Numbered from the stretch's first letter, positions 1-8,210 are shown. The stretch: DNA of 8,247 nucleotides from a virus (IMGVR_UViG_2740892270_000011), one strand, 5' to 3'. Notes: a model not told the origin generated them from the letters alone. Translations and numbers: made by a program.

Positions 1-61
1 CATCAGATGGCTGCTTAAAAAAAGAACAAATGGTAGTGTCCGCTATTGCCAGTACACCTCA
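1..61. repeat. Left arm of a perfect 61-bp inverted repeat (partner 8150..8210); abuts the window edge so may extend further left
   Basis: Reverse complement of 1..61 equals 8150..8210 at 61/61 positions; identity breaks at 62 versus 8149. Confidence 0.9.
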
Positions 62-203
62 GGGTATAAGGGGTTATGGCCACCGGACTACCAAACGGCT
101 GCCAGCCCTCTTTCAGTTTATGTGTCAGCTTTTCCGCAAGATCTGACGGCGGCGCCGCCCTGACAACATCATAGTGTTTAAATGCCATGGTTCTTTCCAC
201 CAT
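15..203 (-). CDS. Small late-region phage protein, 57-62 aa, resembling the DUF1737-type proteins found just upstream of lysis genes; start is ATG at 203 or more likely ATG at 188
   Basis: Open frame with TAA at 15..17. Sequence MAFKHYDVVRAAPPSDLAEKLTHKLKEGWQPFGSPVAI fits the DUF1737 pattern as recalled (Y.VV...LE..L.EGW.P.GSP); not verified. Weak SD-like GGTGGAAAG precedes the ATG at 188. The last 14 codons and stop lie inside the inverted repeat. Confidence 0.5.
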   Translation of the reverse strand: MVERTMAFKHYDVVRAAPPSDLAEKLTHKLKEGWQPFGSPVAITPYTLRCTGNSGHYHLFFF

Positions 204-448
204 CTGAAAAATAATTCTTTAAAATACCTGACATGTAATACAGAAAAAACACAAAACCATACCTTAAATAAAAACCTGATTATCAAGCAGATATGCATGG
301 ATAAACTACAAGACGAGATATAAACCACCCTGCATTTAAATAAACAATAAACAACATCAGAAAAATAATTCTGCTCTATGGTTTACATTCAAAAATATCA
401 TTTATACTTTTCAGAACATCACCAGCAAGGCATAAACAAGGAAACTAA

Positions 449-784
449 ATGAAGTGGATTGTGATTGATACAGTTATCCAGCCATCATGCGGAATATCTT
501 TTTCAGTCATATGGAGTAAAATAAAATTAATAATCTGGTATCAATCGGATGCTTTCTTACCTCCTGAAAGTATATTTACACTGACTCACACAGGCATCAT
601 GCTCAATAACAAAGTGCTACCTGTAACCATTTACAACGTAGTACCATTCAATAAAACATTCTGGAATTCAATCAAAAATAGCCAGGAATGCCCTACAAAT
701 ACAGATAACGTATTGAATGAATGCTTTAATAACCGTTGCACTCTGCAAATATGTCCTTATGGACTAAAACAACAAAGTCCATAA
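449..784 (+). CDS. Hypothetical 111-aa protein in an AT-rich island, with a C-terminal Cys pattern C-x10-C-x4-C-x4-C; no family recognised
   Basis: SD AAGGAAA (438..444) lies 4-6 nt before ATG 449. A 111-codon open frame is unusual in DNA this AT-rich. Opposite strand to the late operon. Confidence 0.4.
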
Positions 785-787
785 GGA
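754..787. repeat. 12-bp perfect inverted repeat (tccttatggact / agtccataagga) with a 10-nt spacer, spanning the last codons and stop of ORF 449..784
   Basis: Direct reading: 754..765 is the reverse complement of 776..787. Confidence 0.7.
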
Positions 788-804
788 GTTTACTCACATC
801 TGAC

Positions 805-840
805 AAAATCAATATAAACAGCCCCTCCGGAGAGGGGCTG
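805..840 (-). terminator. Candidate intrinsic terminator for minus-strand transcripts (9-bp GC-rich stem, 4-nt loop, then a T-rich tract)
   Basis: Stem cagcccctc (819..827) pairs with gaggggctg (832..840). On the minus strand it is followed by TTTATATTGATTTT. Confidence 0.35.
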
Positions 841-1079
841 GAGAGTGGCGCTATGTGCCATTGCATGGTGCCGGGTGCCTCCCGGTGAATTCAGTACCAG
901 CACCTGAATCCGCGATTATCCCATATACCTACTCGCTGATTGCCCCTCCGCACAGGGGGATTCACCATGCCAGTTTCTTTTAACAAACTCCCCGCAAAAC
1001 AGACAACTGTCAACCGTCTGAATTGTGAAGTATTTAAAAATTTCTCCCGCTAACTGATACCCGGCTAACAGTCTGGCGT

Positions 1080-1329
1080 NNNNNNNNNNNNNNNNNNNNN
1101 NNNNNNNNNNNNNNNNNNNNNNNNNNNNNNNNNNNNNNNNNNNNNNNNNNNNNNNNNNNNNNNNNNNNNNNNNNNNNNNNNNNNNNNNNNNNNNNNNNNN
1201 NNNNNNNNNNNNNNNNNNNNNNNNNNNNNNNNNNNNNNNNNNNNNNNNNNNNNNNNNNNNNNNNNNNNNNNNNNNNNNNNNNNNNNNNNNNNNNNNNNNN
1301 NNNNNNNNNNNNNNNNNNNNNNNNNNNNN
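1080..1329. other. Run of 250 N (masked or unsequenced); hides the 3' part of the ileZ-like tRNA
   Basis: Literal n characters. Confidence 1.
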
Positions 1330-1382
1330 CCAGCGACCTGGCGATTATGAGTCGCTCGCTCTCACCACTGAGCTAAAGGGCC
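1330..1382 (-). tRNA. Partial tRNA (5' 53 nt visible, 3' part inside the N block), ileZ-like tRNA-Ile2/Met type with anticodon CAU
   Basis: Minus-strand sequence GGCCCTTTAGCTCAGTGGTGAGAGCGAGCGACTCATAATCGCCAGGTCGCTGG shows acceptor, D-arm, and anticodon loop CTCATAA (CAU). It closely resembles E. coli tRNA-Ile2 as recalled. Confidence 0.6.
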
Positions 1383-1422
1383 GGGAGCCGCATAATAACG
1401 ACGCGTAATTAATTCTTCAATA

Positions 1423-2481
1423 TCATCCGTTCTGGCTGACTAAATCCTGTACTTCCCGAACCGTCTGCTCAAAACGTTCAGTCTCCAGCTCAACGCCAAT
1501 TGCACGACGCCCGAGCGCCAGTGCCGCTTTCACTGTCGAACCCAACCCCATGAAAAAATCTGCAATCAGGTCACCCGGACGACTGCTAGCGCTGATTATC
1601 TGCTGCAGCATTTCTGCCGGTTTTTCGCACGGATGTTTCCCGGGATAGAACTGCACCGGTTTATGCGTCCACACATCGGTATACGGCACCTGCACCGTCA
1701 CGCCAAAATACCGCCGCAGATGTTTATATTCACTCAGCAGCTCCGCATACTGCCGGTTCAGTGAGGTATACGTATCCACCAGCTGGTGGTGGAGCTTTTC
1801 CAGTTCACCACGCCGATGCTTCTCTTCTGCCACCCGGGCAAACAGCGCCTGTAATTTCAGATAATCGCTTTCATTCGGCAACTGCCACTGACCGGCACTG
1901 AACCAGTGCGACACCATGTTTTTCTTTCCTGTGGCATCTGCAATCTGTTTTGCCGTTATCCCCAGGGCAGCTCGCGCATCACGAAAGTAAGAAATCAGCG
2001 GGGCCATCACATGCTGTTTCAGTGCACTGCCCTTCGCCGCATACCCGGCATCTTTCGGACGATACGGCCCCTGATAATGTTCCGCGAACAGAATGCGCTC
2101 TGTGGCGGGGAAATACGCCCGCAGGCTTTCCTTGTTGCATCCGTTCCAGCGTCCGGACGGCTTCGCCCAGATAATATGGTTCAGCACACTGAAGCGTTCA
2201 CGCATCATGATTTCGATATCAGATGCCAGGCGATGACCACAGAACAGGTAAAGACTTCCGGCAGGTTTCAGCACCCGCCAGAACTGCGCCAGACACTGGT
2301 CCAGCCACTTCAGGTAATCATCGTCGCCCTTCCACTGGTTATCCCAGCCCTCAGGCTTCACTTTAAAGTACGGCGGGTCCGTGACTATCAGGTCAACAGA
2401 ATTTTCGGGTAACGACCGGATAAATTCCAGGCAGTCGGCGTTGATTAACTCACAACTGGATATTTTTACAGTATTAAGCAT
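1423..2481 (-). CDS. DNA N6-adenine/N4-cytosine methyltransferase, beta-class order (DPPY motif before the AdoMet FxGxG motif), 352 aa; prophage cargo
   Basis: LIVTDPPYF near the N-terminus and DFFMGLGST near the C-terminus. A central segment (ITAKQIADATGKKNMVSHWF) looks like a helix-turn-helix insert. Full-length open frame. Confidence 0.9.
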   Translation of the reverse strand: MLNTVKISSCELINADCLEFIRSLPENSVDLIVTDPPYFKVKPEGWDNQWKGDDDYLKWLDQCLAQFWRVLKPAGSLYLFCGHRLASDIEIMMRERFSVLNHIIWAKPSGRWNGCNKESLRAYFPATERILFAEHYQGPYRPKDAGYAAKGSALKQHVMAPLISYFRDARAALGITAKQIADATGKKNMVSHWFSAGQWQLPNESDYLKLQALFARVAEEKHRRGELEKLHHQLVDTYTSLNRQYAELLSEYKHLRRYFGVTVQVPYTDVWTHKPVQFYPGKHPCEKPAEMLQQIISASSRPGDLIADFFMGLGSTVKAALALGRRAIGVELETERFEQTVREVQDLVSQNG

Positions 2482-2490
2482 GGATCATTA

Positions 2491-2600
2491 AGCCTGTCTC
2501 TGATAGGCTCATTCTGCTTTTGCGCAAAGCAGTGGGCCTGAGGTTTGCTTGTGAACCCAACGCATGAGCAGATGGCTGGTGGGTGCCCCTAACACCCACC
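2491..2600. promoter_or_regulatory. Cluster of three palindromes in the 5' leader of the methyltransferase gene; candidate operator or RNA structure
   Basis: agcct..aggct (2491..2509); near-perfect 19-nt palindrome ctgctttTGCGCAaagcag (2514..2532); 8-bp stem ggtgggtg / cacccacc (2578..2600). None is followed by a U tract. Confidence 0.35.
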
Positions 2601-2608
2601 AGCCGCCC

Positions 2609-2872
2609 NNNNNNNNNNNNNNNNNNNNNNNNNNNNNNNNNNNNNNNNNNNNNNNNNNNNNNNNNNNNNNNNNNNNNNNNNNNNNNNNNNNNNNNNNNNN
2701 NNNNNNNNNNNNNNNNNNNNNNNNNNNNNNNNNNNNNNNNNNNNNNNNNNNNNNNNNNNNNNNNNNNNNNNNNNNNNNNNNNNNNNNNNNNNNNNNNNNN
2801 NNNNNNNNNNNNNNNNNNNNNNNNNNNNNNNNNNNNNNNNNNNNNNNNNNNNNNNNNNNNNNNNNNNNNNNN
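2609..2872. other. Run of 264 N (masked or unsequenced); hides the 3' end of the unknown cargo gene
   Basis: Literal n characters. Confidence 1.
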
Positions 2873-3146
2873 TGTTGTACTCCTGAACAAGAGCAAATAA
2901 TTCTGAATTAGCAACCATGAACTCATCGCAAACCCTCTGTATAGCATCACTATTCAGAATAATAACGTCTCTTCCCGAAAGACGATCAGGAGTACAGAAC
3001 AAAACTGTCAAACGGCTGAAGGCCTTTGCTCGTGCTGCATTGACTATATCAATACGCTGCCTAAGGATGAAACACCCCGACGCCTCATCAATATTCACTC
3101 TACCCACACCATATGAATGATAAATATTTAATGCTGAAAAAACCAT
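2873..3146 (-). CDS. Hypothetical protein, N-terminal 91+ aa visible with the C-terminus inside the N block; AT-rich; no family recognised
   Basis: Frame open from ATG 3146 (the track extends to a TTG at 3173) down to the N block: MVFSALNIYHSYGVGRVNIDEASG... No convincing SD, so the start is uncertain. Confidence 0.3.
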
Positions 3147-3283
3147 TAGACCGTATAACAAACACTCAATCAATACTTAACAGAACTTTTATTTTTGACA
3201 AACATAAAATATTTTCAACAATATCCTGAGCCAGGTATATTTCAGTATAAGGCTCTGCCGGAAGGAATCTGGAAGAATGAATA

Positions 3284-3360
3284 TGGCGCGCTGTACTGGA
3301 TTCGAACCAGTGACCGATTGCTTAGAAGGCAATTGCTCTGTCCGGCTGAGCTAACAACGC
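3284..3360 (-). tRNA. tRNA-Arg with anticodon UCU (reads AGA), the argO/argN-like rare-codon tRNA typical of lambdoid late regions
   Basis: Minus-strand 77-nt cloverleaf: acceptor GCGTTGT / ACAGCGC, D-arm GCTC..GAGC, anticodon stem ATTGC / GCAAT with loop CTTCTAA, T-arm ACTGG-TTCGAAT-CCAGT, encoded CCA. Confidence 0.85.
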
Positions 3361-3399
3361 TGAATACCGATAATGGACCGCCATCGGGGACCCGCCCCC

Positions 3400-3659
3400 N
3401 NNNNNNNNNNNNNNNNNNNNNNNNNNNNNNNNNNNNNNNNNNNNNNNNNNNNNNNNNNNNNNNNNNNNNNNNNNNNNNNNNNNNNNNNNNNNNNNNNNNN
3501 NNNNNNNNNNNNNNNNNNNNNNNNNNNNNNNNNNNNNNNNNNNNNNNNNNNNNNNNNNNNNNNNNNNNNNNNNNNNNNNNNNNNNNNNNNNNNNNNNNNN
3601 NNNNNNNNNNNNNNNNNNNNNNNNNNNNNNNNNNNNNNNNNNNNNNNNNNNNNNNNNNN
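3400..3659. other. Run of 260 N (masked or unsequenced) between the tR'-like terminator and tRNA-Arg; could hide further tRNAs
   Basis: Literal n characters. Confidence 1.
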
Positions 3660-3730
3660 ATAACTCTTGTCGAAAAAGCCAGCAAGCTGAAAGACAGGTA
3701 TTCACCGCCACCAGCGCGTTTACTGTACTG

Positions 3731-3760
3731 ACGCGATTTCAGTCATAAAAAACCCGCTCG
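3731..3760 (-). terminator. Intrinsic terminator downstream of the Q-like gene (tR'-like position)
   Basis: 7-bp stem aacccgc (3741..3747) / gcgggtt (3754..3760), 6-nt loop; on the minus strand it is followed by TTTTTTAT. Confidence 0.6.
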
Positions 3761-3833
3761 GCGGCGGGTTGTAGAAACTCTTCTAACGTCAGGCATAAAA
3801 CGCCCATCGTTATAACGAATTTACCACAGATTC

Positions 3834-4164
3834 CGGAAAAATCAACCTTGTTACCTAGTTACCTTTTTTANNNNNNNNNNNNNNNNNNNNNNNNNNNNNN
3901 NNNNNNNNNNNNNNNNNNNNNNNNNNNNNNNNNNNNNNNNNNNNNNNNNNNNNNNNNNNNNNNNNNNNNNNNNNNNNNNNNNNNNNNNNNNNNNNNNNNN
4001 NNNNNNNNNNNNNNNNNNNNNNNNNNNNNNNNNNNNNNNNNNNNNNNNNNNNNNNNNNNNNNNNNNNNNNNNNNNNNNNNNNNNNNNNNNNNNNNNNNNN
4101 NNNNNNNNNNNNNNNNNNNNNNNNNNNNNNNNNNCGGAAAAATCAACCTAGTTACCTTTTTTAA
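3834..4164. repeat. Near-identical direct repeat immediately flanking the N block 3871..4134 (copy 1 at 3834..3870, copy 2 at 4135..4164)
   Basis: Both copies read cggaaaaatcaacc-tagttacc-tttttta. Copy 1 carries an extra ttgttacc 8-mer. Copy 2 is in-frame coding sequence of the Q-like gene. Confidence 0.8.
3871..4134. other. Run of 264 N (masked or unsequenced); hides the 3' end of the Q-like gene and any late promoter
   Basis: Literal n characters. Confidence 1.
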
Positions 4165-4965
4165 CTGCCGCTCAGCCCATGCTTCTTCAATATCAAACCG
4201 AGTCACCAGCGCATCATAGAATTTCTTAACTGTTTTTTCCCATGACGCGCGTGTTATCTGGTTTGTCACCTCGCATATAGCATTAAATGCCTCCGTTGAT
4301 GGTAGTCTTTCATAGCCACGACCACCACAACGCTGGCAGTCTCTGATAACAGGCATACCACGTTTTACCGACTCTTCACGATGAATGGCGACACCACGCC
4401 CACGGCAATCCTTACAGGCGGTGGAAACCTCACCCTTTCCGCCACACTCCGGACAGGCAACTTTTACCACCTCCCTGACTTTTTTCCATTCTTCCCAGTA
4501 AGACGGATACACACCTTTCGTACACTTTGCCCATACCGGCGGCTTACCATCCGGATACTGGATCTTGTTTGTAAAAACCTCGCTTTCAATAAATTTTTTT
4601 CCGTGACAGCAGGGGCACTGTTTTTTGCTCGCCGCGCTACGGGCATAATCTTCAAACGCATACGAAGCCATAATACGCATCACTGCCGGTTTTATTTCTG
4701 CCGGGAGTTTTCTTAACGCCGCCACGCGATCACACCGACTGAGTGCATATTCTGTCAGCAATTCTGTTGCCCGCTCTCTGTCATTCATACTAATGCCCAT
4801 TTTCCCAAGGAACGCAGAAACCCCCATCTCAGCCCGATTCTGTGTCATGCCCTGCGCGGCCATCACATCAGTGATACTCAGCGCATCTTTCGACGTTGAG
4901 GCCGATGCATCAGTCAGGCCGGGGGATTTTGGGGAGTAGTATTTCGGTAAATCTTCCAGTTTCAT
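4135..4965 (-). CDS. Q-like late antiterminator with a DnaJ-type zinc-finger module; 277 codons visible, 3' end inside the N block
   Basis: Four CxxCxGxG repeats (CPCCHGKK, CPECGGKG, CKDCRGRG, CQRCGGRG). N-terminus MKLEDLPKYYSPKSP resembles Q proteins of Qin-type prophages as recalled (unverified). Start ATG overlaps the rusA stop (ATGA). Sits in the canonical Q slot between rusA and the terminator/tRNAs. Confidence 0.65.
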
Positions 4966-5253
4966 TTTTTGACCTGCCCTTCAAGCATTATGGGATAAAT
5001 CTTCACCCCCAGACGTCCACCAGATACTGGCTGAGCACGAACGATATTGATTTCATCAAACTGCTCATCGTCCATTAGCAACCCCGCATGCGTCAGCGCA
5101 TCCAGCGGCGCTTTCAGAATATTGTCCAGGTCACGGCGGCGCTTATCCGGTGGTTCTGCAATAATTTTTATTGCCAACCTTCCGGACAGGCTTAATTTCA
5201 GCCGCTGCTGGCGAACAATAAGCGCCACTGCCCGGCGATAACGCTCCCCGGCT
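4962..5253 (-). CDS. rusA: Holliday-junction resolvase RusA; C-terminal 97 aa visible, 5' end inside the N block
   Basis: PDKRRRDLDNILKAPLDALTHAGLLMDDEQ...GGRL matches the RusA catalytic core of E. coli RusA ([30 protein letters not shown], from memory). Stop TGA at 4962..4964. Confidence 0.85.
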
Positions 5254-5503
5254 NNNNNNNNNNNNNNNNNNNNNNNNNNNNNNNNNNNNNNNNNNNNNNN
5301 NNNNNNNNNNNNNNNNNNNNNNNNNNNNNNNNNNNNNNNNNNNNNNNNNNNNNNNNNNNNNNNNNNNNNNNNNNNNNNNNNNNNNNNNNNNNNNNNNNNN
5401 NNNNNNNNNNNNNNNNNNNNNNNNNNNNNNNNNNNNNNNNNNNNNNNNNNNNNNNNNNNNNNNNNNNNNNNNNNNNNNNNNNNNNNNNNNNNNNNNNNNN
5501 NNN
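5254..5503. other. Run of 250 N (masked or unsequenced); hides the rusA start and the end of the DUF968-like gene
   Basis: Literal n characters. Confidence 1.
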
Positions 5504-6407
5504 CAGCCTTTGTTCCCATCCCTCCCAGTCCATGACCAATGATGTGATGCGGATCATCTGCCTGATTGCCACACGTCATGCATTTCTGCGTTTTTACCCA
5601 GCGCGTGTATACAGGCATCTCTTCCCGTTGTGATTTCTGGCGCTGGAGATACTGAGCCGGTGACTCCGGATCAACGGCAATGCTGACCACCGTCTTTTCC
5701 TGTGGTGGGTTCTGTTGCTGGTGGACGTGAGGCAGTAACGCAATATTTTTTGTGCGCTGCTTCAGTATGCTGGTGGCTGTCTGCTCTCCCGGTATGATGT
5801 CGCTTTCACTGTACACAGAGCGAATTTTTTCCGCACGCAACCCCAGCGAACGACGTAATACCGCTTCCGGTAGCGCGTCCGCCACCTGATTGCGGACCGC
5901 CCACCAGGATAATTCAGCCAGAGATAATTCACGCTCCTGCGTACCGCTTATTGCGTGACCGATGACGTCAATCATCCATGCTGACAGGTTTTGATGAGCA
6001 AGTTGCTCGAGTGATTCGGATGTCTGGTCACGCAGCTGGTTGTCGCAGTGCCAGCACAACACCATTGCGCCGGTACCATAACGGTGAATGACGGTTTCGC
6101 TGTGATGATAATCGCCGTGTGGCCACTGGCAGGATTTAATATGGCGCAACAGCCAGTCAGACAATGCACCAGCACCACCAGCAGCACGAATCACCCGTGC
6201 GTTACTGAAAAACGGCAGCAATGTTTTGTCTTCCACCAGCGGCTGGCGAGCGGCAGGAACGACCCCGGACGGCAGATTACGCATGCTTTTTGGTTCCGGC
6301 TCCACCAGTATTCTGCCGTTATGGAATGCTGACATTGATTCACGGCCTGGCTTAACGATAACCAGACCGAGTTCCGGTACCAGAACAGGTCGAAGTAATA
6401 CCCGCAC
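5504..6407 (-). CDS. Lambdoid nin-region protein, DUF968/YdfU-like (family name from memory); 301 codons visible, 3' end inside the N block
   Basis: Long open frame starting at GTG 6407 behind GGAGG. Cys/His cluster CMTCGNQADDPHHIIGHGLGG just before the N block. Position immediately upstream of rusA. Confidence 0.65.
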
Positions 6408-6482
6408 ATTACCTCCAGATCCGTTGCTGGAATGTGCGGGACGGACGCGTTGGCCGTTCGGAGTAAGGGAGCCTGACGGAGA

Positions 6483-6764
6483 TTATCCAGTGACGGTAGT
6501 CGAGGCTAAGGGCTTTTTTAACCTCGCATCCGCGCCTGCGGTAACACTGAATGAGCCATTCGGCCTGTTCTTCAGTGCATGGGGGATGCTGGTACCAATC
6601 AGATTTAAATGCGTGAGAGCGCCGCCCGTGCCTGCTGGCAAAGACGGCTGAATTATCAGAATTGTGTAGTCTGGAAGGCAGTGGCTGACAATAGCGCCAT
6701 TCTCAACGCGCACAGTATAGAGGCCATCTTCACTAAAAATTTCACGTAATTCTTCGATTTTCAT
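6483..6764 (-). CDS. Hypothetical small protein (93 aa) between hok and the DUF968-like gene; C-terminal half is low-complexity and may be frameshifted or over-extended
   Basis: ATG 6764 preceded by GGAAGGA with an 8-nt spacer; N-terminus MKIEELREIFSEDGLYTVRVENG looks protein-like. Confidence 0.4.
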   Translation of the reverse strand: MKIEELREIFSEDGLYTVRVENGAIVSHCLPDYTILIIQPSLPAGTGGALTHLNLIGTSIPHALKNRPNGSFSVTAGADARLKKPLASTTVTG

Positions 6765-6846
6765 CAACAGAATCCTTCCAGATAAATAGCACTCCCCTGT
6801 TCGGGGTCCATCCCTCTTCTCCCTGCGCGCTACTTAAGTATTTTTG

Positions 6847-6876
6847 ATTCTATTCCGGCACCATCTAAAACTTCAA
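6847..6876 (-). promoter_or_regulatory. Candidate sigma70 promoter (TTGAAG, 18-nt spacer, TAGAAT) reading leftward into ORF93, DUF968-like, rusA and Q-like
   Basis: On the minus strand the -35 is at 6871..6876 and the -10 at 6847..6852, immediately downstream of the hok terminator. Confidence 0.35.
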
Positions 6877-6884
6877 ACGCGTTG

Positions 6885-6916
6885 AAAATAAAAACAAAAA
6901 CCCGCCGAAGCGGGTT
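6885..6916 (-). terminator. Intrinsic terminator downstream of hok
   Basis: Stem aacccgc (6899..6905) / gcgggtt (6910..6916) with loop cgaa; on the minus strand it is followed by TTTTTGTTTTTATTTT. Confidence 0.6.
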
Positions 6917-6984
6917 AAGTGTGGGTGCATTGAGGATGCCTGCCCCATCAGAGGTGGCGAGGGATTTCTCCCCCGCCTGGTCTC

Positions 6985-7140
6985 TTACTCCTCAGGTTCG
7001 TAAGCTGTGAAGACAGCGACCTCCGTCTGGCCGGTTCGAATTCGTACCTCGCAGAGGTCTTTCCTCGTTACCAGTGCCGTCACTATGACGGTTAAACAGA
7101 TGACGATCAGGGCGATTAACATCGCCTTTTGCTGCTTCAT
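6985..7140 (-). CDS. hok: Hok-family type I toxin (51 aa, single transmembrane helix); an in-frame upstream ATG at 7197 would give a 70-aa mok-like extension
   Basis: MKQQKAMLIALIVICLTVIVTALVTRKDLCEVRIRTGQTEVAVFTAYEPEE carries the Hok signature (LTRK.LCE.R, EVA.F.AYE). SD AAGGAG lies 9 nt before ATG 7140. Leader resembles hok mRNA leaders as recalled. Confidence 0.85.
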   Translation of the reverse strand: MKQQKAMLIALIVICLTVIVTALVTRKDLCEVRIRTGQTEVAVFTAYEPEE

Positions 7141-7188
7141 AGCCTGCTTCTCCTTGCCTTTCGGCACGTAAGAGGCTAACCTAGATTT

Positions 7189-7260
7189 GCCGTTCATAGA
7201 TTGAGCCTCAGATTAATGTTAAGCGTCTTGCCGGACGCGTAATGTTAACTGGGGCTTTTC
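7189..7260 (+). ncRNA. Candidate Sok-like antisense RNA opposite the hok leader and mok-like start; boundaries approximate
   Basis: Plus-strand promoter-like TTGCCT (7154..7159), 17-nt spacer, TAACCT (7177..7182) lies inside the hok 5' region in the position expected for sok. No clean terminator found. Confidence 0.25.
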
Positions 7261-7316
7261 TCTATCTGCCTTTTGGTGTTCATGCCTGAGACAGATAGCC
7301 TCAAGCACCCGCTGCA

Positions 7317-7344
7317 ATTCTACTTAACTCTCCTTTTCCCGCAA
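7317..7344 (-). promoter_or_regulatory. Candidate hok promoter (TTGCGG, 16-nt spacer, TAGAAT) with predicted transcript 5' end near 7310
   Basis: The -10 is at 7317..7322 and the -35 at 7339..7344 on the minus strand. The predicted mRNA begins GGGUGCUUGAGGCU..., resembling the 5' end of plasmid R1 hok mRNA as recalled. Confidence 0.45.
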
Positions 7345-7431
7345 ACCGTTTTTATCCCCAGCGGCAAATCGAATACACCACCAGCGCCACCGCCATCGCA
7401 ATTCCTACCGTTGTTAATGCTTCAGGCCAGG

Positions 7432-7776
7432 TCATCGTAAAATATCCTCCACGCTTATCAGTCCGTTCCGCTCCAGATAACTCATCGCCTTATCCGGTAA
7501 TTTGCAGTCTGGCTTCGCTTTCCTCAGTTGCCAGGTTAACTGCTTTACCAGCATGGTTAACTCATCGACCAGACGCTGATATCCCACTGGTTTGTATTCA
7601 TGCAATTTACCGGCTGGCTCTGCTGCCAGCGATACCAGTGCGATTTCCAGAACAGCAATATCCATCTTATATGTGCGGATGATGTCATGGTCGATTGTGC
7701 CCGGTATGCACAGTCTCTGTGCTTCAATAGTCTCCTCTGCGTGAGCTATTAACTGCTCTCTGGTAAAAGTCGTCAT
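7432..7776 (-). CDS. Hypothetical small protein B (114 aa), paralogous at its N-terminus to upstream gene A; unknown function
   Basis: ATG 7776 preceded by AGAAGGGG with a 7-nt spacer; start overlaps the stop of A (ATGA). Sequence [12 protein letters not shown]...[10 protein letters not shown]... Confidence 0.55.
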
Positions 7777-7940
7777 GCCGTAGCCCCTTCTTGATATTTT
7801 TCAAACCAGAACACAACCGGCTCTGCTTCCAGCGATGCCAGCGCAATCCGTGCCAGTTCCATTTGTTCACCACGGGTAAGCCCGTTTTCAAGCGGGTTTT
7901 TAATGAACAATTCAATACGTTCTTTGGTAATAGTGGTCAT
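7773..7940 (-). CDS. Hypothetical small protein A (55 aa), translationally coupled to B; absent from the supplied ORF track because it is short
   Basis: ATG 7940 preceded by AAGGAG with a 6-nt spacer. Hand translation [55 protein letters not shown] with TGA at 7773..7775. Confidence 0.5.
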
Positions 7941-7950
7941 GTGTTACTCC

Positions 7951-8181
7951 TTAACCCGCAGTGCTTTCAACTGATGAGGGGAACAAAATCTTTTCATCAA
8001 ACCCTGCATTCATATCATGAACAGCAACACACCAATCCATCGACGAACGATTATCAAGAGCCTCCATGATTTCATCCATGCGGCGTAGGTCATACAGGTA
8101 AATGCTTTTATCGCCAATGGTGTAAAAGCCAATTTTTTTCGGTGATGGATGAGGTGTACTGGCAATAGCGGACACTACCAT
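7951..8181 (-). CDS. Hypothetical ORF76; its first 10 codons lie in the right arm of the inverted repeat, so it may be a truncated or chimeric gene
   Basis: Open frame whose TAA stop (7951..7953) sits inside the SD region of gene A, an operon-like arrangement. No clear SD before ATG 8181; coding quality uncertain. Confidence 0.35.
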   Translation of the reverse strand: MVVSAIASTPHPSPKKIGFYTIGDKSIYLYDLRRMDEIMEALDNRSSMDWCVAVHDMNAGFDEKILFPSSVESTAG

Positions 8182-8210
8182 TTGTTCTTTTTTTAAGCAG
8201 CCATCTGATG
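8150..8210. repeat. Right arm of the perfect 61-bp inverted repeat (partner 1..61); carries a detached copy of the 3' end of the DUF1737-like gene
   Basis: Plus strand here encodes ..RCTGNSGHYHLFFF* as at the left arm, but the frame is closed by TGA at 8143..8145 just upstream. Confidence 0.9.

What the first reader, a model, noticed from the sequence alone, without database searches (positions are those of the whole stretch)
6885..7344. Self-contained hok locus with an in-frame mok-like start and a candidate sok promoter
The Hok ORF (6985..7140) has its own candidate promoter (TTGCGG-16-TAGAAT), a leader beginning GGGUGCUUGAGGCU and a strong terminator, so it looks like an autonomous hok/sok-type module and not just the third gene of an operon. 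The upstream ATG at 7197 is exactly 57 nt (19 codons) from the hok ATG, so it is in frame and would make an N-terminally extended 70-aa Hok. In plasmid R1, as I recall, mok is in a different frame from hok. A plus-strand promoter-like element (TTGCCT-17-TAACCT, 7154..7182) is placed where sok would be expected.
Basis: partly seen in the sequence, partly recalled or inferred. Interest (0 to 1): 0.45.

Follow-up and report, generated by a model that had tools for sequence, protein, structure and literature searches.

The report
Intact prophage hok/mok/sok toxin–antitoxin cassette

Summary
Window 6890-7344 (minus strand) is a complete hok/mok/sok type I toxin-antitoxin cassette. The 51-aa Hok is identical to K-12 HokD/RelF (Pfam HOK_GEF E=3e-23). 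The leader matches Rfam RF01794 over its full length (112 bits, E=1e-25), starting at G7310. The 5' tac element pairs with the 3' fbi element in the minimum-energy fold (z=-7.7), with compensatory changes in homologues, and an intrinsic terminator follows.

The plus-strand TTGCCT-17-TAACCT has the same bases as the sokW promoter of Sakai prophage 5. There, mutating TAACCTA abolished antitoxin activity (PMC8621323).

The 57-nt in-frame mok is not unusual. K-12 mokC/hokC has the same spacing and is annotated. So does the 70-aa 'gef homolog' ORF of Sp5, and so do 58 of 80 phage contigs encoding an identical HokD.

The cassette is a discrete mosaic block in phage genomes. Its exact allele occurs in more than 1000 complete E. 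coli records.

Verdict: interpretation supported, already known, low interest. One side observation is a hypervariable patch at the Sok 5' tail.

The parts
7339..7344 (-). hok promoter, candidate -35 (TTGCGG)
   Evidence: Read directly from the sequence. Only 3/6 match to consensus. Not conserved among phage contigs: most homology blocks end at 7327-7345, and diversity upstream is about 0.4.
7317..7322 (-). hok promoter -10 (TAGAAT), 16-nt spacer, 6 nt before +1
   Evidence: Aligns with the TATAAT of K-12 hokC and with TAGAAT of Sp5 hokW. Lies inside the conserved cassette block.
6893..7310 (-). Full-length hok (mok-hok) mRNA, about 415 nt; +1 at G7310
   Evidence: Rfam RF01794 model position 1 aligns to 7310. 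MFE -168.8 kcal/mol, z=-7.7. The 3' end is inferred from the terminator.
7299..7310 (-). tac element (GGGUGCUUGAGG), 5' end of the mRNA
   Evidence: Pairs with fbi in the MFE. Nearly invariant in 34 homologues, with a U-A to C-G compensatory change in 9 of them.
7282..7308 (-). 5' hairpin predicted for the nascent transcript (metastable tac hairpin)
   Evidence: Fold of the first 41 nt: nt 3-13 pair with nt 19-29, -17.1 kcal/mol. Assigned by analogy with the R1 metastable structure (PMC9841398).
7251..7255 (-). ucb / anti-SD (GCCCC within AAAAGCCCC)
   Evidence: Near-invariant in 34 homologues. Pairs with the mok SD region in the consensus fold.
7206..7209 (-). mok Shine-Dalgarno (GAGG)
   Evidence: 8 nt upstream of the mok ATG and invariant. 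Base-paired in both the consensus fold and the single-sequence fold.
6985..7197 (-). mok reading frame, in frame with hok (70 aa: MNGKSRLASYVPKGKEKQA + Hok)
   Evidence: Same 57-nt spacing as K-12 mokC/hokC and the Sp5 70-aa ORF. Found in 58 of 80 phage contigs.
7150..7153 (-). hok Shine-Dalgarno (GGAG), overlapped on the other strand by the sok -35
   Evidence: Lies in the CAAGGAG block, which is nearly invariant in the 34 homologues.
6985..7140 (-). hok toxin gene, 51 aa, identical to K-12 HokD (RelF)
   Evidence: Translations are identical. Pfam PF01848 E=3e-23. PHROG 251 'MokW-like host killing' E=3e-33.
6956..6977 (-). GC-rich 3'-UTR stem-loop, inferred stop point of 3' trimming
   Evidence: Predicted in the single-sequence fold and in the consensus fold, with compensatory pairs. 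The role is inferred from the R1 model.
6923..6935 (-). fbi element (CCUCAAUGCACCC), complementary to tac
   Evidence: Covaries with tac.
6890..6916 (-). Intrinsic terminator (stem 6916-6899, then T run)
   Evidence: The low-coordinate end of the cassette homology block falls at 6890-6898 in 64 of 71 contigs.
7154..7182 (+). sok promoter: -35 TTGCCT (7154-7159), 17-nt spacer, -10 TAACCT (7177-7182)
   Evidence: Same bases as in Sp5 hokW-sokW. There TAACCTA was mutated to GAGCCGG (primers YO-421/422) and antitoxin activity was lost (PMC8621323).
7189..7259 (+). Sok antisense RNA (inferred, about 71-75 nt): 5' tail 7189-7202, long hairpin 7203-7257, then U run
   Evidence: +1 mapped from RefSeq sokC, which starts 49 nt upstream of the hokC ATG position. 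Fold -33.9 kcal/mol, z=-5.3. sokW is reported as 71 nt complementary to the hokW leader. The ends are not determined experimentally here.

Best explanation
Window 6890-7344 is an intact hok/mok/sok type I toxin-antitoxin cassette of the hokD/hokW type. It sits as an independent transcription unit (a 'moron') in the nin region of a lambdoid prophage fragment.

Shown here: every sequence element of the plasmid R1 paradigm is present and conserved.

Inferred by homology, the mechanism runs as follows.
1. A weak constitutive promoter (-10 TAGAAT) makes a stable mRNA of about 415 nt from G7310 to the terminator at 6916-6899.
2. While the mRNA is being made, a 5' hairpin hides tac.
3. In the finished mRNA, tac (7310-7299) pairs with fbi (6935-6923). 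The mok Shine-Dalgarno sequence is base-paired, so the RNA is neither translated nor bound by Sok.
4. Slow 3' trimming removes fbi. The RNA refolds, exposing the mok ribosome-binding site and the Sok target.
5. The unstable antisense Sok RNA (about 7189-7259, plus strand, from TTGCCT-17-TAACCT) pairs across the mok start. This blocks mok translation, and therefore the coupled hok translation, and leads to RNase III cleavage.
6. When Sok is no longer replenished (loss of the element, transcription shut-off, or prophage induction), mok and then hok are translated. The 51-aa Hok depolarises the inner membrane.

Because mok is in frame here, ribosomes that start at 7197 would make a 70-aa extended Hok. 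The frame itself is probably irrelevant to the coupling.
For: Family and structure:
- Rfam RF01794 matches over its full length at 112 bits. The same model hits K-12 hokC and hokB, Sp5 hokW and an R1-type plasmid locus.
- Hok is identical to K-12 HokD and hits Pfam HOK_GEF and PHROG 251.
- tac-fbi pairing appears in the MFE with z=-7.7. It appears again in the consensus fold of 34 loci from Escherichia, Shigella, Kluyvera, Photorhabdus, Pantoea and Citrobacter, where 9 sequences carry a U-A to C-G compensatory change; 17 of 67 consensus pairs show compensation.
- A nascent 5' hairpin is predicted.

Link to a tested locus:
- The cassette is about 92-93% identical to Sp5 hokW-sokW. The sok -35, spacer and -10 have the same bases.
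- In Sp5, HokW is toxic. sokW expressed from that promoter neutralises it, and mutation of that -10 abolishes protection, which is partly rescued in trans. RNase III and Hfq contribute, and sokW disappears on mitomycin C induction (PMC8621323).
- The RefSeq sokC annotation maps Sok +1 to 7189.

Autonomy and spread:
- The cassette is a discrete mosaic block.
- The exact allele is widespread: at least 1021 E. coli records and at least 120 IMG/VR contigs. That argues for maintenance rather than decay.

The R1 mechanism as summarised here comes from PMC9841398.
Against: - No transcript, processing or toxicity data exist for this particular allele.
- Both promoters are weak consensus matches. The generic scan did not flag them.
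- The hok -35 is not conserved among phages.
- The MFE of a 3'-truncated mRNA kept the 5' hairpin rather than forming the tac-ucb pairing expected from R1.
- A preprint (10.1101/2025.08.07.668861) reports earlier work in which chromosomal hok loci from E. coli C, K-12 and ECOR24 failed to mediate post-segregational killing.
- The prophage here is only an 8.1-kb fragment bracketed by IS600 ends. A role in phage release, as found for Sp5, may therefore not apply.
Confidence: 0.88

Rival explanations
1. The cassette is an evolutionary relic. Its sequence is intact but it is functionally silent, like the chromosomal hok loci of laboratory E. coli. It persists only because it hitch-hikes in prophage DNA.
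For: [quoted passage not shown]
- K-12 hokD is truncated.
- Here the prophage is a fragment flanked by IS600.
- Both promoters are weak.
Against: - All regulatory elements are intact and conserved, with compensatory changes.
- No stop codon or frameshift is present; Hok is identical to the toxic HokD/RelF.
- The sok promoter has the same bases as in the functional hokW-sokW.
- The allele is present unchanged in more than 1000 genomes.
Confidence: 0.1
2. Hok is expressed mainly as a passenger of the phage early-right (PR/nin) operon rather than from its own promoter. It lies on the same strand as the Q, RusA and DUF968 genes, so antiterminated read-through on induction would supply the hok message and interfere head-on with sok transcription. 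This can coexist with the main explanation.
For: - The orientation is the same as the neighbouring nin-region genes.
- The -35 of the hok promoter is not conserved.
- In Sp5, sokW RNA disappears and HokW rises after mitomycin C in a RecA-dependent way.
Against: - The -10 and the +1 are conserved with chromosomal hokC and hokB, which are not in phage operons.
- The cassette carries its own strong terminator and moves as a block to unrelated positions, for example near the right-hand end of the Sp5 provirus record rather than among nin-region genes.
- The tac element must be at the 5' end for the R1-type refolding (PMC9841398).
Confidence: 0.15
3. The in-frame 70-aa Mok-Hok fusion is itself a functional product, either a distinct toxin isoform or a modulator, and not merely a by-product of translational coupling.
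For: - The 57-nt in-frame arrangement is the majority state and is found across genera.
- The fusion ORF is annotated in several records.
- Codons 7-19 are conserved.
Against: - Cassettes encoding an identical HokD also occur with a 56-nt spacing. There mok is 19 codons long and ends in an ATGA overlap with the hok start (11 of 80).
- 58-nt, +1-frame versions occur in Kluyvera and in R1.
- Codons 2-6 are hypervariable.
- Codons 7-19 overlap the sok promoter and the hok SD, which explains their conservation at the nucleotide level.
- For R1, it is translation of mok that matters, not the Mok product (PMC9841398).
Confidence: 0.07

Closest known systems
hokW-sokW of Sakai prophage 5 / Stx2 phage VT2-Sakai (Takada et al. 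2021, PMC8621323)
   Same: - About 92-93% nucleotide identity over the cassette (window 6913-7435).
- Same bases at the hok -10, tac, the leader hairpins, and the sok -35, spacer and -10.
- Same 57-nt in-frame mok, giving a 70-aa ORF.
- Carried by a lambdoid phage.
   Different: - Hok differs at 4 of 51 residues, all in the C-terminal tail (...FTAYEPEE here...FVDYESEK in HokW).
- mok codons 2-5, which are also the Sok 5' tail, differ (AACGGCAAATCT here, CTGAACACATGT in Sp5).
- Homology stops at 6913, so Sp5 lacks this window's terminator hairpin.
- Sp5 carries the cassette near the right-hand end of the provirus record, not among nin-region genes.
hokC/mokC/sokC (gef) locus of E. coli K-12
   Same: - Homologous promoter -10, +1, tac, leader, mok start and hok SD.
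- Exactly the same 57-nt in-frame mok-hok arrangement, annotated as the 69-aa 'regulatory protein MokC'.
- SokC is annotated on the opposite strand, starting 8 nt inside mokC.
   Different: - Chromosomal rather than prophage-borne.
- The Sok-target hairpin is about 18 nt shorter.
- In K-12 an IS186 copy lies about 20 nt downstream of hokC, and no fbi-like match was found in the K-12-type hokC locus L019.
- Hok is 82% identical.
hok/mok/sok (parB) of plasmid R1
   Same: - Same set of elements: tac, fbi, ucb, mok, sok and a 3' stem-loop.
- The Rfam model hits an R1-type plasmid locus at 87 bits.
- The R1 mechanism is the basis for the mechanism inferred here.
   Different: - HokW, the close relative of this Hok, is reported as 44% identical to R1 Hok.
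- In R1, mok starts 58 nt upstream and is in the +1 frame (positions 116 and 174; PMC9841398). However, an IncFII plasmid with an R1-identical Hok has the 57-nt in-frame form.
- R1 is a plasmid and its locus has a plasmid-stabilising role.
hokD (relF) of the K-12 Qin prophage
   Same: - Identical 51-aa protein.
- Near-identical coding region, fbi and terminator, with the rem gene downstream.
   Different: K-12 shares homology only from about 18 nt upstream of the hok ATG, with relE and relB replacing everything further upstream. It has no hok promoter, tac, leader or mok start, and no sok -10 or Sok RNA region. The window carries the complete ancestral-type cassette and has no relBE.

Membership tests
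[quoted passage not shown] | Small (about 50 aa) hydrophobic Hok/Gef-family toxin ORF | tested here: met
   Pfam PF01848 81.6 bits against a cut-off of 22, E=3e-23. PHROG 251 E=3e-33. Identical to K-12 HokD.
[quoted passage not shown] | Conserved structured hok mRNA leader from +1 to the hok AUG | tested here: met
   Rfam RF01794 matched over the full model (1-157) at 112.4 bits against a gathering score of 59. The same model hits K-12 hokC and hokB, Sp5 hokW and an R1-type locus.
[quoted passage not shown] | Long-range 5'-3' pairing (tac-fbi) that closes the full-length mRNA | tested here: met
   12 of 13 positions are complementary. The pairing is formed in the MFE. In the consensus fold, 9 of 34 sequences carry a compensatory U-A to C-G change.
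[quoted passage not shown] | Overlapping leader ORF (mok) with its own SD, starting about 56-58 nt upstream of hok | tested here: met
   ATG at 7197 with GAGG 8 nt upstream, 57 nt before hok. The position is conserved in 34 homologues.
[quoted passage not shown] | Cis-encoded antisense RNA (Sok) with its own promoter, complementary to the mok translation-initiation region | tested here: inconclusive
   At sequence level the feature is met. The promoter has the same bases as the mutationally validated sokW promoter. The position matches RefSeq sokC. A stable hairpin and U run are predicted. Whether this allele is transcribed cannot be shown with these tools.
[quoted passage not shown] | Toxicity of Hok, neutralisation by Sok, and 3' processing to an active mRNA | not testable with these tools
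   Only indirect evidence is available. The homologue hokW-sokW is toxic and is neutralised by sokW (PMC8621323).
K-12-type hokD (relBE-hokD, truncated locus) | hok lies directly downstream of relB-relE and lacks the hok promoter, leader, mok start and sok -10/Sok RNA region | tested here: not met
   The alignment shows K-12 homology beginning about 18 nt upstream of the hok ATG, with relE beyond. The window has the full leader and no relBE. The upstream ORFs match only PHROG families of unknown function.
Phage 'moron' (autonomous transcription unit inserted between phage genes) | Own promoter and terminator, with sharp mosaic boundaries and different flanking contexts in different phages | tested here: met
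   Homology-block ends cluster at 6890-6898 (64 of 71) and 7327-7345 (50 of 76) in IMG/VR contigs. The Sp5 homology block (cassette plus a short upstream stretch, 6913-7435) lies at a different position in that genome. PHROG 251 is categorised as 'moron, auxiliary metabolic gene and host takeover'.

The most novel reading that the evidence does not exclude
The 15-20 nt that encode mok codons 2-6, and on the other strand the single-stranded 5' tail of Sok (about 7183-7203), form a hypervariable patch. Among phage cassettes that encode an identical HokD protein there are at least 14 alleles. Diversity there is about 0.34, against 0.03 or less in the hok coding region and about 0.02-0.15 in the rest of the leader. 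Length is kept in most alleles.

This could reflect diversifying selection on Sok-target recognition. Cassettes on different prophages in one cell would then not cross-neutralise one another, much as antisense-RNA loops define plasmid incompatibility groups.

My small test does not support avoidance of identical alleles within a genome: 8 of 10 co-resident pairs differ, against about 84% expected at random. Simple relaxation of constraint in this patch remains a sufficient explanation.
Probability: 0.25. Interest if true: 0.35.

Novelty: already known. Interest (0 to 1): 0.1.

Why it matters
It matters little for discovery. hok/sok is the textbook type I toxin-antitoxin system. Its enrichment in Escherichia prophages has been documented (preprint 10.1101/2025.08.07.668861). 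A locus about 92-93% identical in DNA, hokW-sokW, has been tested experimentally.

The practical value is for annotation:
- NCBI's pipeline labels only the 51-aa 'hokD' CDS in the records I examined and omits mok and Sok.
- The Rfam family named 'sok' actually models the sense-strand hok leader.
- Unlike K-12 hokD, this copy is complete and should be regarded as potentially active.

Tried and rejected
1. Generic promoter scan. It did not flag either promoter, and hexamers of that quality are common in the window. I therefore did not count the hexamers as evidence and relied on homology and the Sp5 mutagenesis.

2. Fold of a 3'-truncated mRNA, to look for the R1-type tac-ucb switch. The MFE kept the 5' hairpin instead. 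This is inconclusive and was not used.

3. Weak Rfam isrK-like hit on the hok 3' UTR (25.8 bits, below the gathering score of 50). A distant BLAST of that segment against phages gave no hit to Gifsy-type Salmonella prophages; the only Salmonella phage listed matched just the terminator. I treat the hit as a chance hairpin-plus-terminator resemblance.

4. Hypothesis that co-resident cassettes avoid sharing a Sok-tail allele. 8 of 10 pairs differ, against about 0.84 expected, so there is no support.

5. Apparent DUF968-RusA fusion ORF (4962..6407). It is an artefact of a 250-nt run of N.

6. This is correct for R1 itself. However, an IncFII plasmid with an R1-identical Hok has the in-frame form, so frame is not a stable family character.

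Full report
**Observation**

I read the region on both strands and listed the ORFs.

- The 51-codon hok ORF runs 7140..6985 on the minus strand.
- An ATG at 7197 lies exactly 57 nt upstream and in frame, giving a 70-aa ORF.
- On the minus strand, TTGCGG (7344-7339), a 16-nt spacer and TAGAAT (7322-7317) precede GGGTGCTTGAGGCT, which starts at 7310.
- On the plus strand, TTGCCT (7154-7159), a 17-nt spacer and TAACCT (7177-7182) are present.
- An intrinsic terminator (stem 6916-6899, then a T run) was found by the scan.

Neither promoter-like element passed the generic consensus scan. Matches of equal quality occur 39 and 20 times in the unmasked part of the window. As hexamers they are not better than chance, and their weight comes from what follows.

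**Identity**

- The Hok protein is identical to K-12 HokD/RelF. It hits Pfam HOK_GEF (E=3e-23) and PHROG 251 'MokW-like host killing'.
- Rfam RF01794 matches 7310..7135 on the minus strand over its whole length: 112.4 bits against a gathering score of 59, E=1.2e-25.
- That model, although named 'sok', is in the sense of the hok mRNA. In K-12 it hits L004 502-654 on the minus strand, while RefSeq annotates sokC at 553-611 on the plus strand. The hit therefore defines the hok leader from +1 to the hok AUG, and Sok is its partial complement.
- Alignments with K-12 hokC and hokB, an R1-type plasmid locus and Sp5 hokW show homology from the -10 box through the leader, mok start, hok SD and hok.

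**RNA architecture**

The 414-nt transcript 7310..6897 folds to -168.8 kcal/mol, against -125.5 +/- 5.6 for shuffles (z=-7.7).

- In that fold the first 12 nt (tac, 7310-7299) pair with CCUCAAUGCACCC (fbi, 6935-6923).
- I took 34 non-identical full-length loci: this window, Sp5, and loci from Escherichia, Shigella, Kluyvera, Photorhabdus, Pantoea, Citrobacter and Pseudocitrobacter.
- RNAalifold recovers the tac-fbi helix in this set. Nine sequences carry a U-A to C-G double change, one a wobble and one a mismatch.
- It also recovers the leader hairpins, pairing of the mok SD with GCCCC, and the GC-rich 3' stem-loop. Of 67 consensus pairs, 17 show compensation.
- The first 41 nt alone form a hairpin that sequesters tac. 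This is the equivalent of the metastable structure described for R1 (PMC9841398).
- A 3'-truncated version did not switch to tac-ucb pairing in the MFE. I leave that step as inferred.

**Sok**

- By homology with RefSeq sokC, which starts 8 nt inside mokC and 49 nt upstream of the hokC ATG, Sok +1 falls at 7189.
- The 7189-7270 plus-strand RNA folds into a 5' tail, a long hairpin and a U run (-33.9 kcal/mol, z=-5.3).
- The decisive link is Sakai prophage 5. The whole cassette is about 92-93% identical to hokW-sokW. From the Sok -10 through the -35, the sequence has the same bases.
- Takada et al. showed that HokW is toxic and that sokW expressed from its own promoter protects. Mutating the sokW -10 abolishes protection, with partial rescue in trans. 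sokW is 71 nt complementary to the leader (PMC8621323).
- Their mutagenic primers convert the hok-sense TAGGTTA to CCGGCTC. The changes are synonymous in the in-frame mok reading frame.

**The in-frame mok**

This is not a peculiarity of this window.

- K-12 mokC (16960) and hokC (16903) are 57 nt apart and share a stop codon. RefSeq annotates the 69-aa 'regulatory protein MokC'.
- VT2-Sakai annotates the 70-aa 'gef homolog'. Stx2a_WGPS9 annotates both the 70-aa and the 51-aa products.
- Among the 40 loci scored, the 57-nt in-frame form predominates. A 58-nt, +1-frame form occurs in Kluyvera and a few others, as in R1 itself (start positions 116 and 174).
- Of 80 IMG/VR contigs encoding a HokD identical to this one, 58 have the 57-nt in-frame form. 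Eleven have a 56-nt form in which mok is 19 codons long and ends in an ATGA overlap with the hok start.
- An IncFII plasmid whose Hok is identical to R1 Hok has the in-frame form.
- Frame therefore varies freely between near-identical cassettes. This fits the finding for R1 that translation of mok up to the hok start matters, not the Mok product.
K-12 hokD shares homology only from about 18 nt upstream of the hok ATG, with relE beyond.

**Autonomy and distribution**

- In 77 IMG/VR contigs that carry this allele, the homology block containing hok ends at 6890-6898 in 64 of 71 informative cases. It ends at 7327-7345 in 50 of 76. These boundaries are just past the terminator and inside the hok promoter.
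- The cassette is a mosaic unit of about 440 bp. In Sp5 the homologous block (cassette plus a short upstream stretch, 6913-7435) sits near the right-hand end of the provirus record rather than among nin-region genes.
- Some part of 6700-7500 matches in 4952 of 5426 complete E. coli genomes, where the feature under the match is annotated 'hokD' in nearly all rows listed.
- The exact 71-nt mok/sok core matches at 99% identity or better in at least 1021 records. The exact 36-mer occurs in at least 120 IMG/VR contigs.

**Context**

- The window is a lambdoid nin-region fragment. It carries a hypothetical 114-aa ORF, a 27-aa hydrophobic ORF, the hok cassette, a 94-aa ORF, DUF968/YdfU, RusA, Q, tRNA-Arg(UCU), a DNA methylase, STnc100 and IraM.
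- It contains five runs of N, which create false long ORFs.
- Its two ends are a perfect 61-nt inverted repeat made of IS600 termini. Homology to E. coli prophages spans exactly 59..8149.
- The cassette therefore sits in a prophage remnant. For this copy, that makes an addiction or exclusion role at least as plausible as the lysis-assisting role shown for Sp5.

**Side observation**

- Among cassettes that encode an identical HokD, nucleotide diversity peaks at 0.34 in 7203-7189, which covers mok codons 1-3 and the Sok 5' tail. It is 0.03 or less in hok and 0.02-0.15 elsewhere in the leader. There are at least 14 alleles.
- This could reflect diversification of Sok specificity.
- Co-resident copies differ in 8 of 10 pairs, about what random sampling predicts. 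I do not claim selection.

**Verdict**

The object is a complete member of a thoroughly characterised family, with a near-identical homologue that has been tested experimentally. It is already known and of low interest. Its value is for annotation: mok and Sok are not annotated in the E. coli records I examined, the Rfam family name is misleading as to strand, and this copy, unlike K-12 hokD, is intact.

Noticed in passing
window 1-61 and 8150-8210 (IS-like sequence to 8247): A perfect 61-nt inverted repeat lies at the two ends of the window. Both arms are termini of IS600 (IS3 family). Homology to E. coli prophages spans exactly 59..8149. The 8.1-kb nin-region segment is therefore a prophage fragment bracketed by inverted IS600 copies, or a contig that breaks in them.
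   Followed up: partly
window 1080-1329, 2609-2872, 3400-3659, 3871-4134, 5254-5503: Five masked runs of N total 1288 nt. ORFs that span them are artefacts. Examples are the apparent 481-aa DUF968+RusA fusion at 4962..6407 and the 365-aa Q-like ORF at 3868..4965.
   Followed up: yes
window 7183-7203 (mok codons 1-6 / Sok 5' tail): A hypervariable patch. There are at least 14 alleles among 70 phage cassettes that encode an identical HokD. Diversity is 0.34, against 0.03 or less in the hok CDS. Co-resident copies differ in 8 of 10 pairs, which is no more than random expectation.
   Followed up: partly
L183 and 10 other IMG/VR loci; L006: The mok frame is not fixed. Eleven of 80 cassettes with identical HokD have a 19-codon mok whose TGA overlaps the hok ATG (ATGA). 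An IncFII plasmid with R1-identical Hok has a 57-nt in-frame mok, unlike R1 itself.
   Followed up: partly
window 7135-7310 (-); L004 502-654 (-) against sokC 553-611 (+): Rfam RF01794, named 'sok antitoxin (CssrC)', models the sense-strand hok mRNA leader from +1 to the hok AUG, not the antisense Sok RNA. Its hit in K-12 is on the strand opposite to the RefSeq sokC and sokB features.
   Followed up: yes
window 7352-7435 (-): A 27-codon hydrophobic ORF ([27 protein letters not shown]). Its ATG overlaps the stop codon of the upstream 114-aa ORF (ATGA), and it ends 7 nt before the hok -35. The same ORF start lies upstream of hokW in Sp5: primer YO-432, with homology reaching 7435. It has no PHROG hit.
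   Followed up: partly
window 6895-6976 (-): The hok 3' UTR (GC-rich hairpin plus terminator) gives a weak full-length match to the Salmonella Hfq-binding sRNA isrK: 25.8 bits, below the gathering score of 50, E=0.022. A distant BLAST against phages gave no hit to Gifsy-type Salmonella prophages. This is probably a chance resemblance.
   Followed up: partly
window 810-999 (-) and 3284-3360 (-): STnc100 sRNA (133.6 bits, E=4.5e-30), and a tRNA-Arg(UCU) gene next to the Q antiterminator and DNA methylase genes. E. coli strain 131 carries a tRNA-Arg and a tRNA-Ile in the equivalent region.
   Followed up: no
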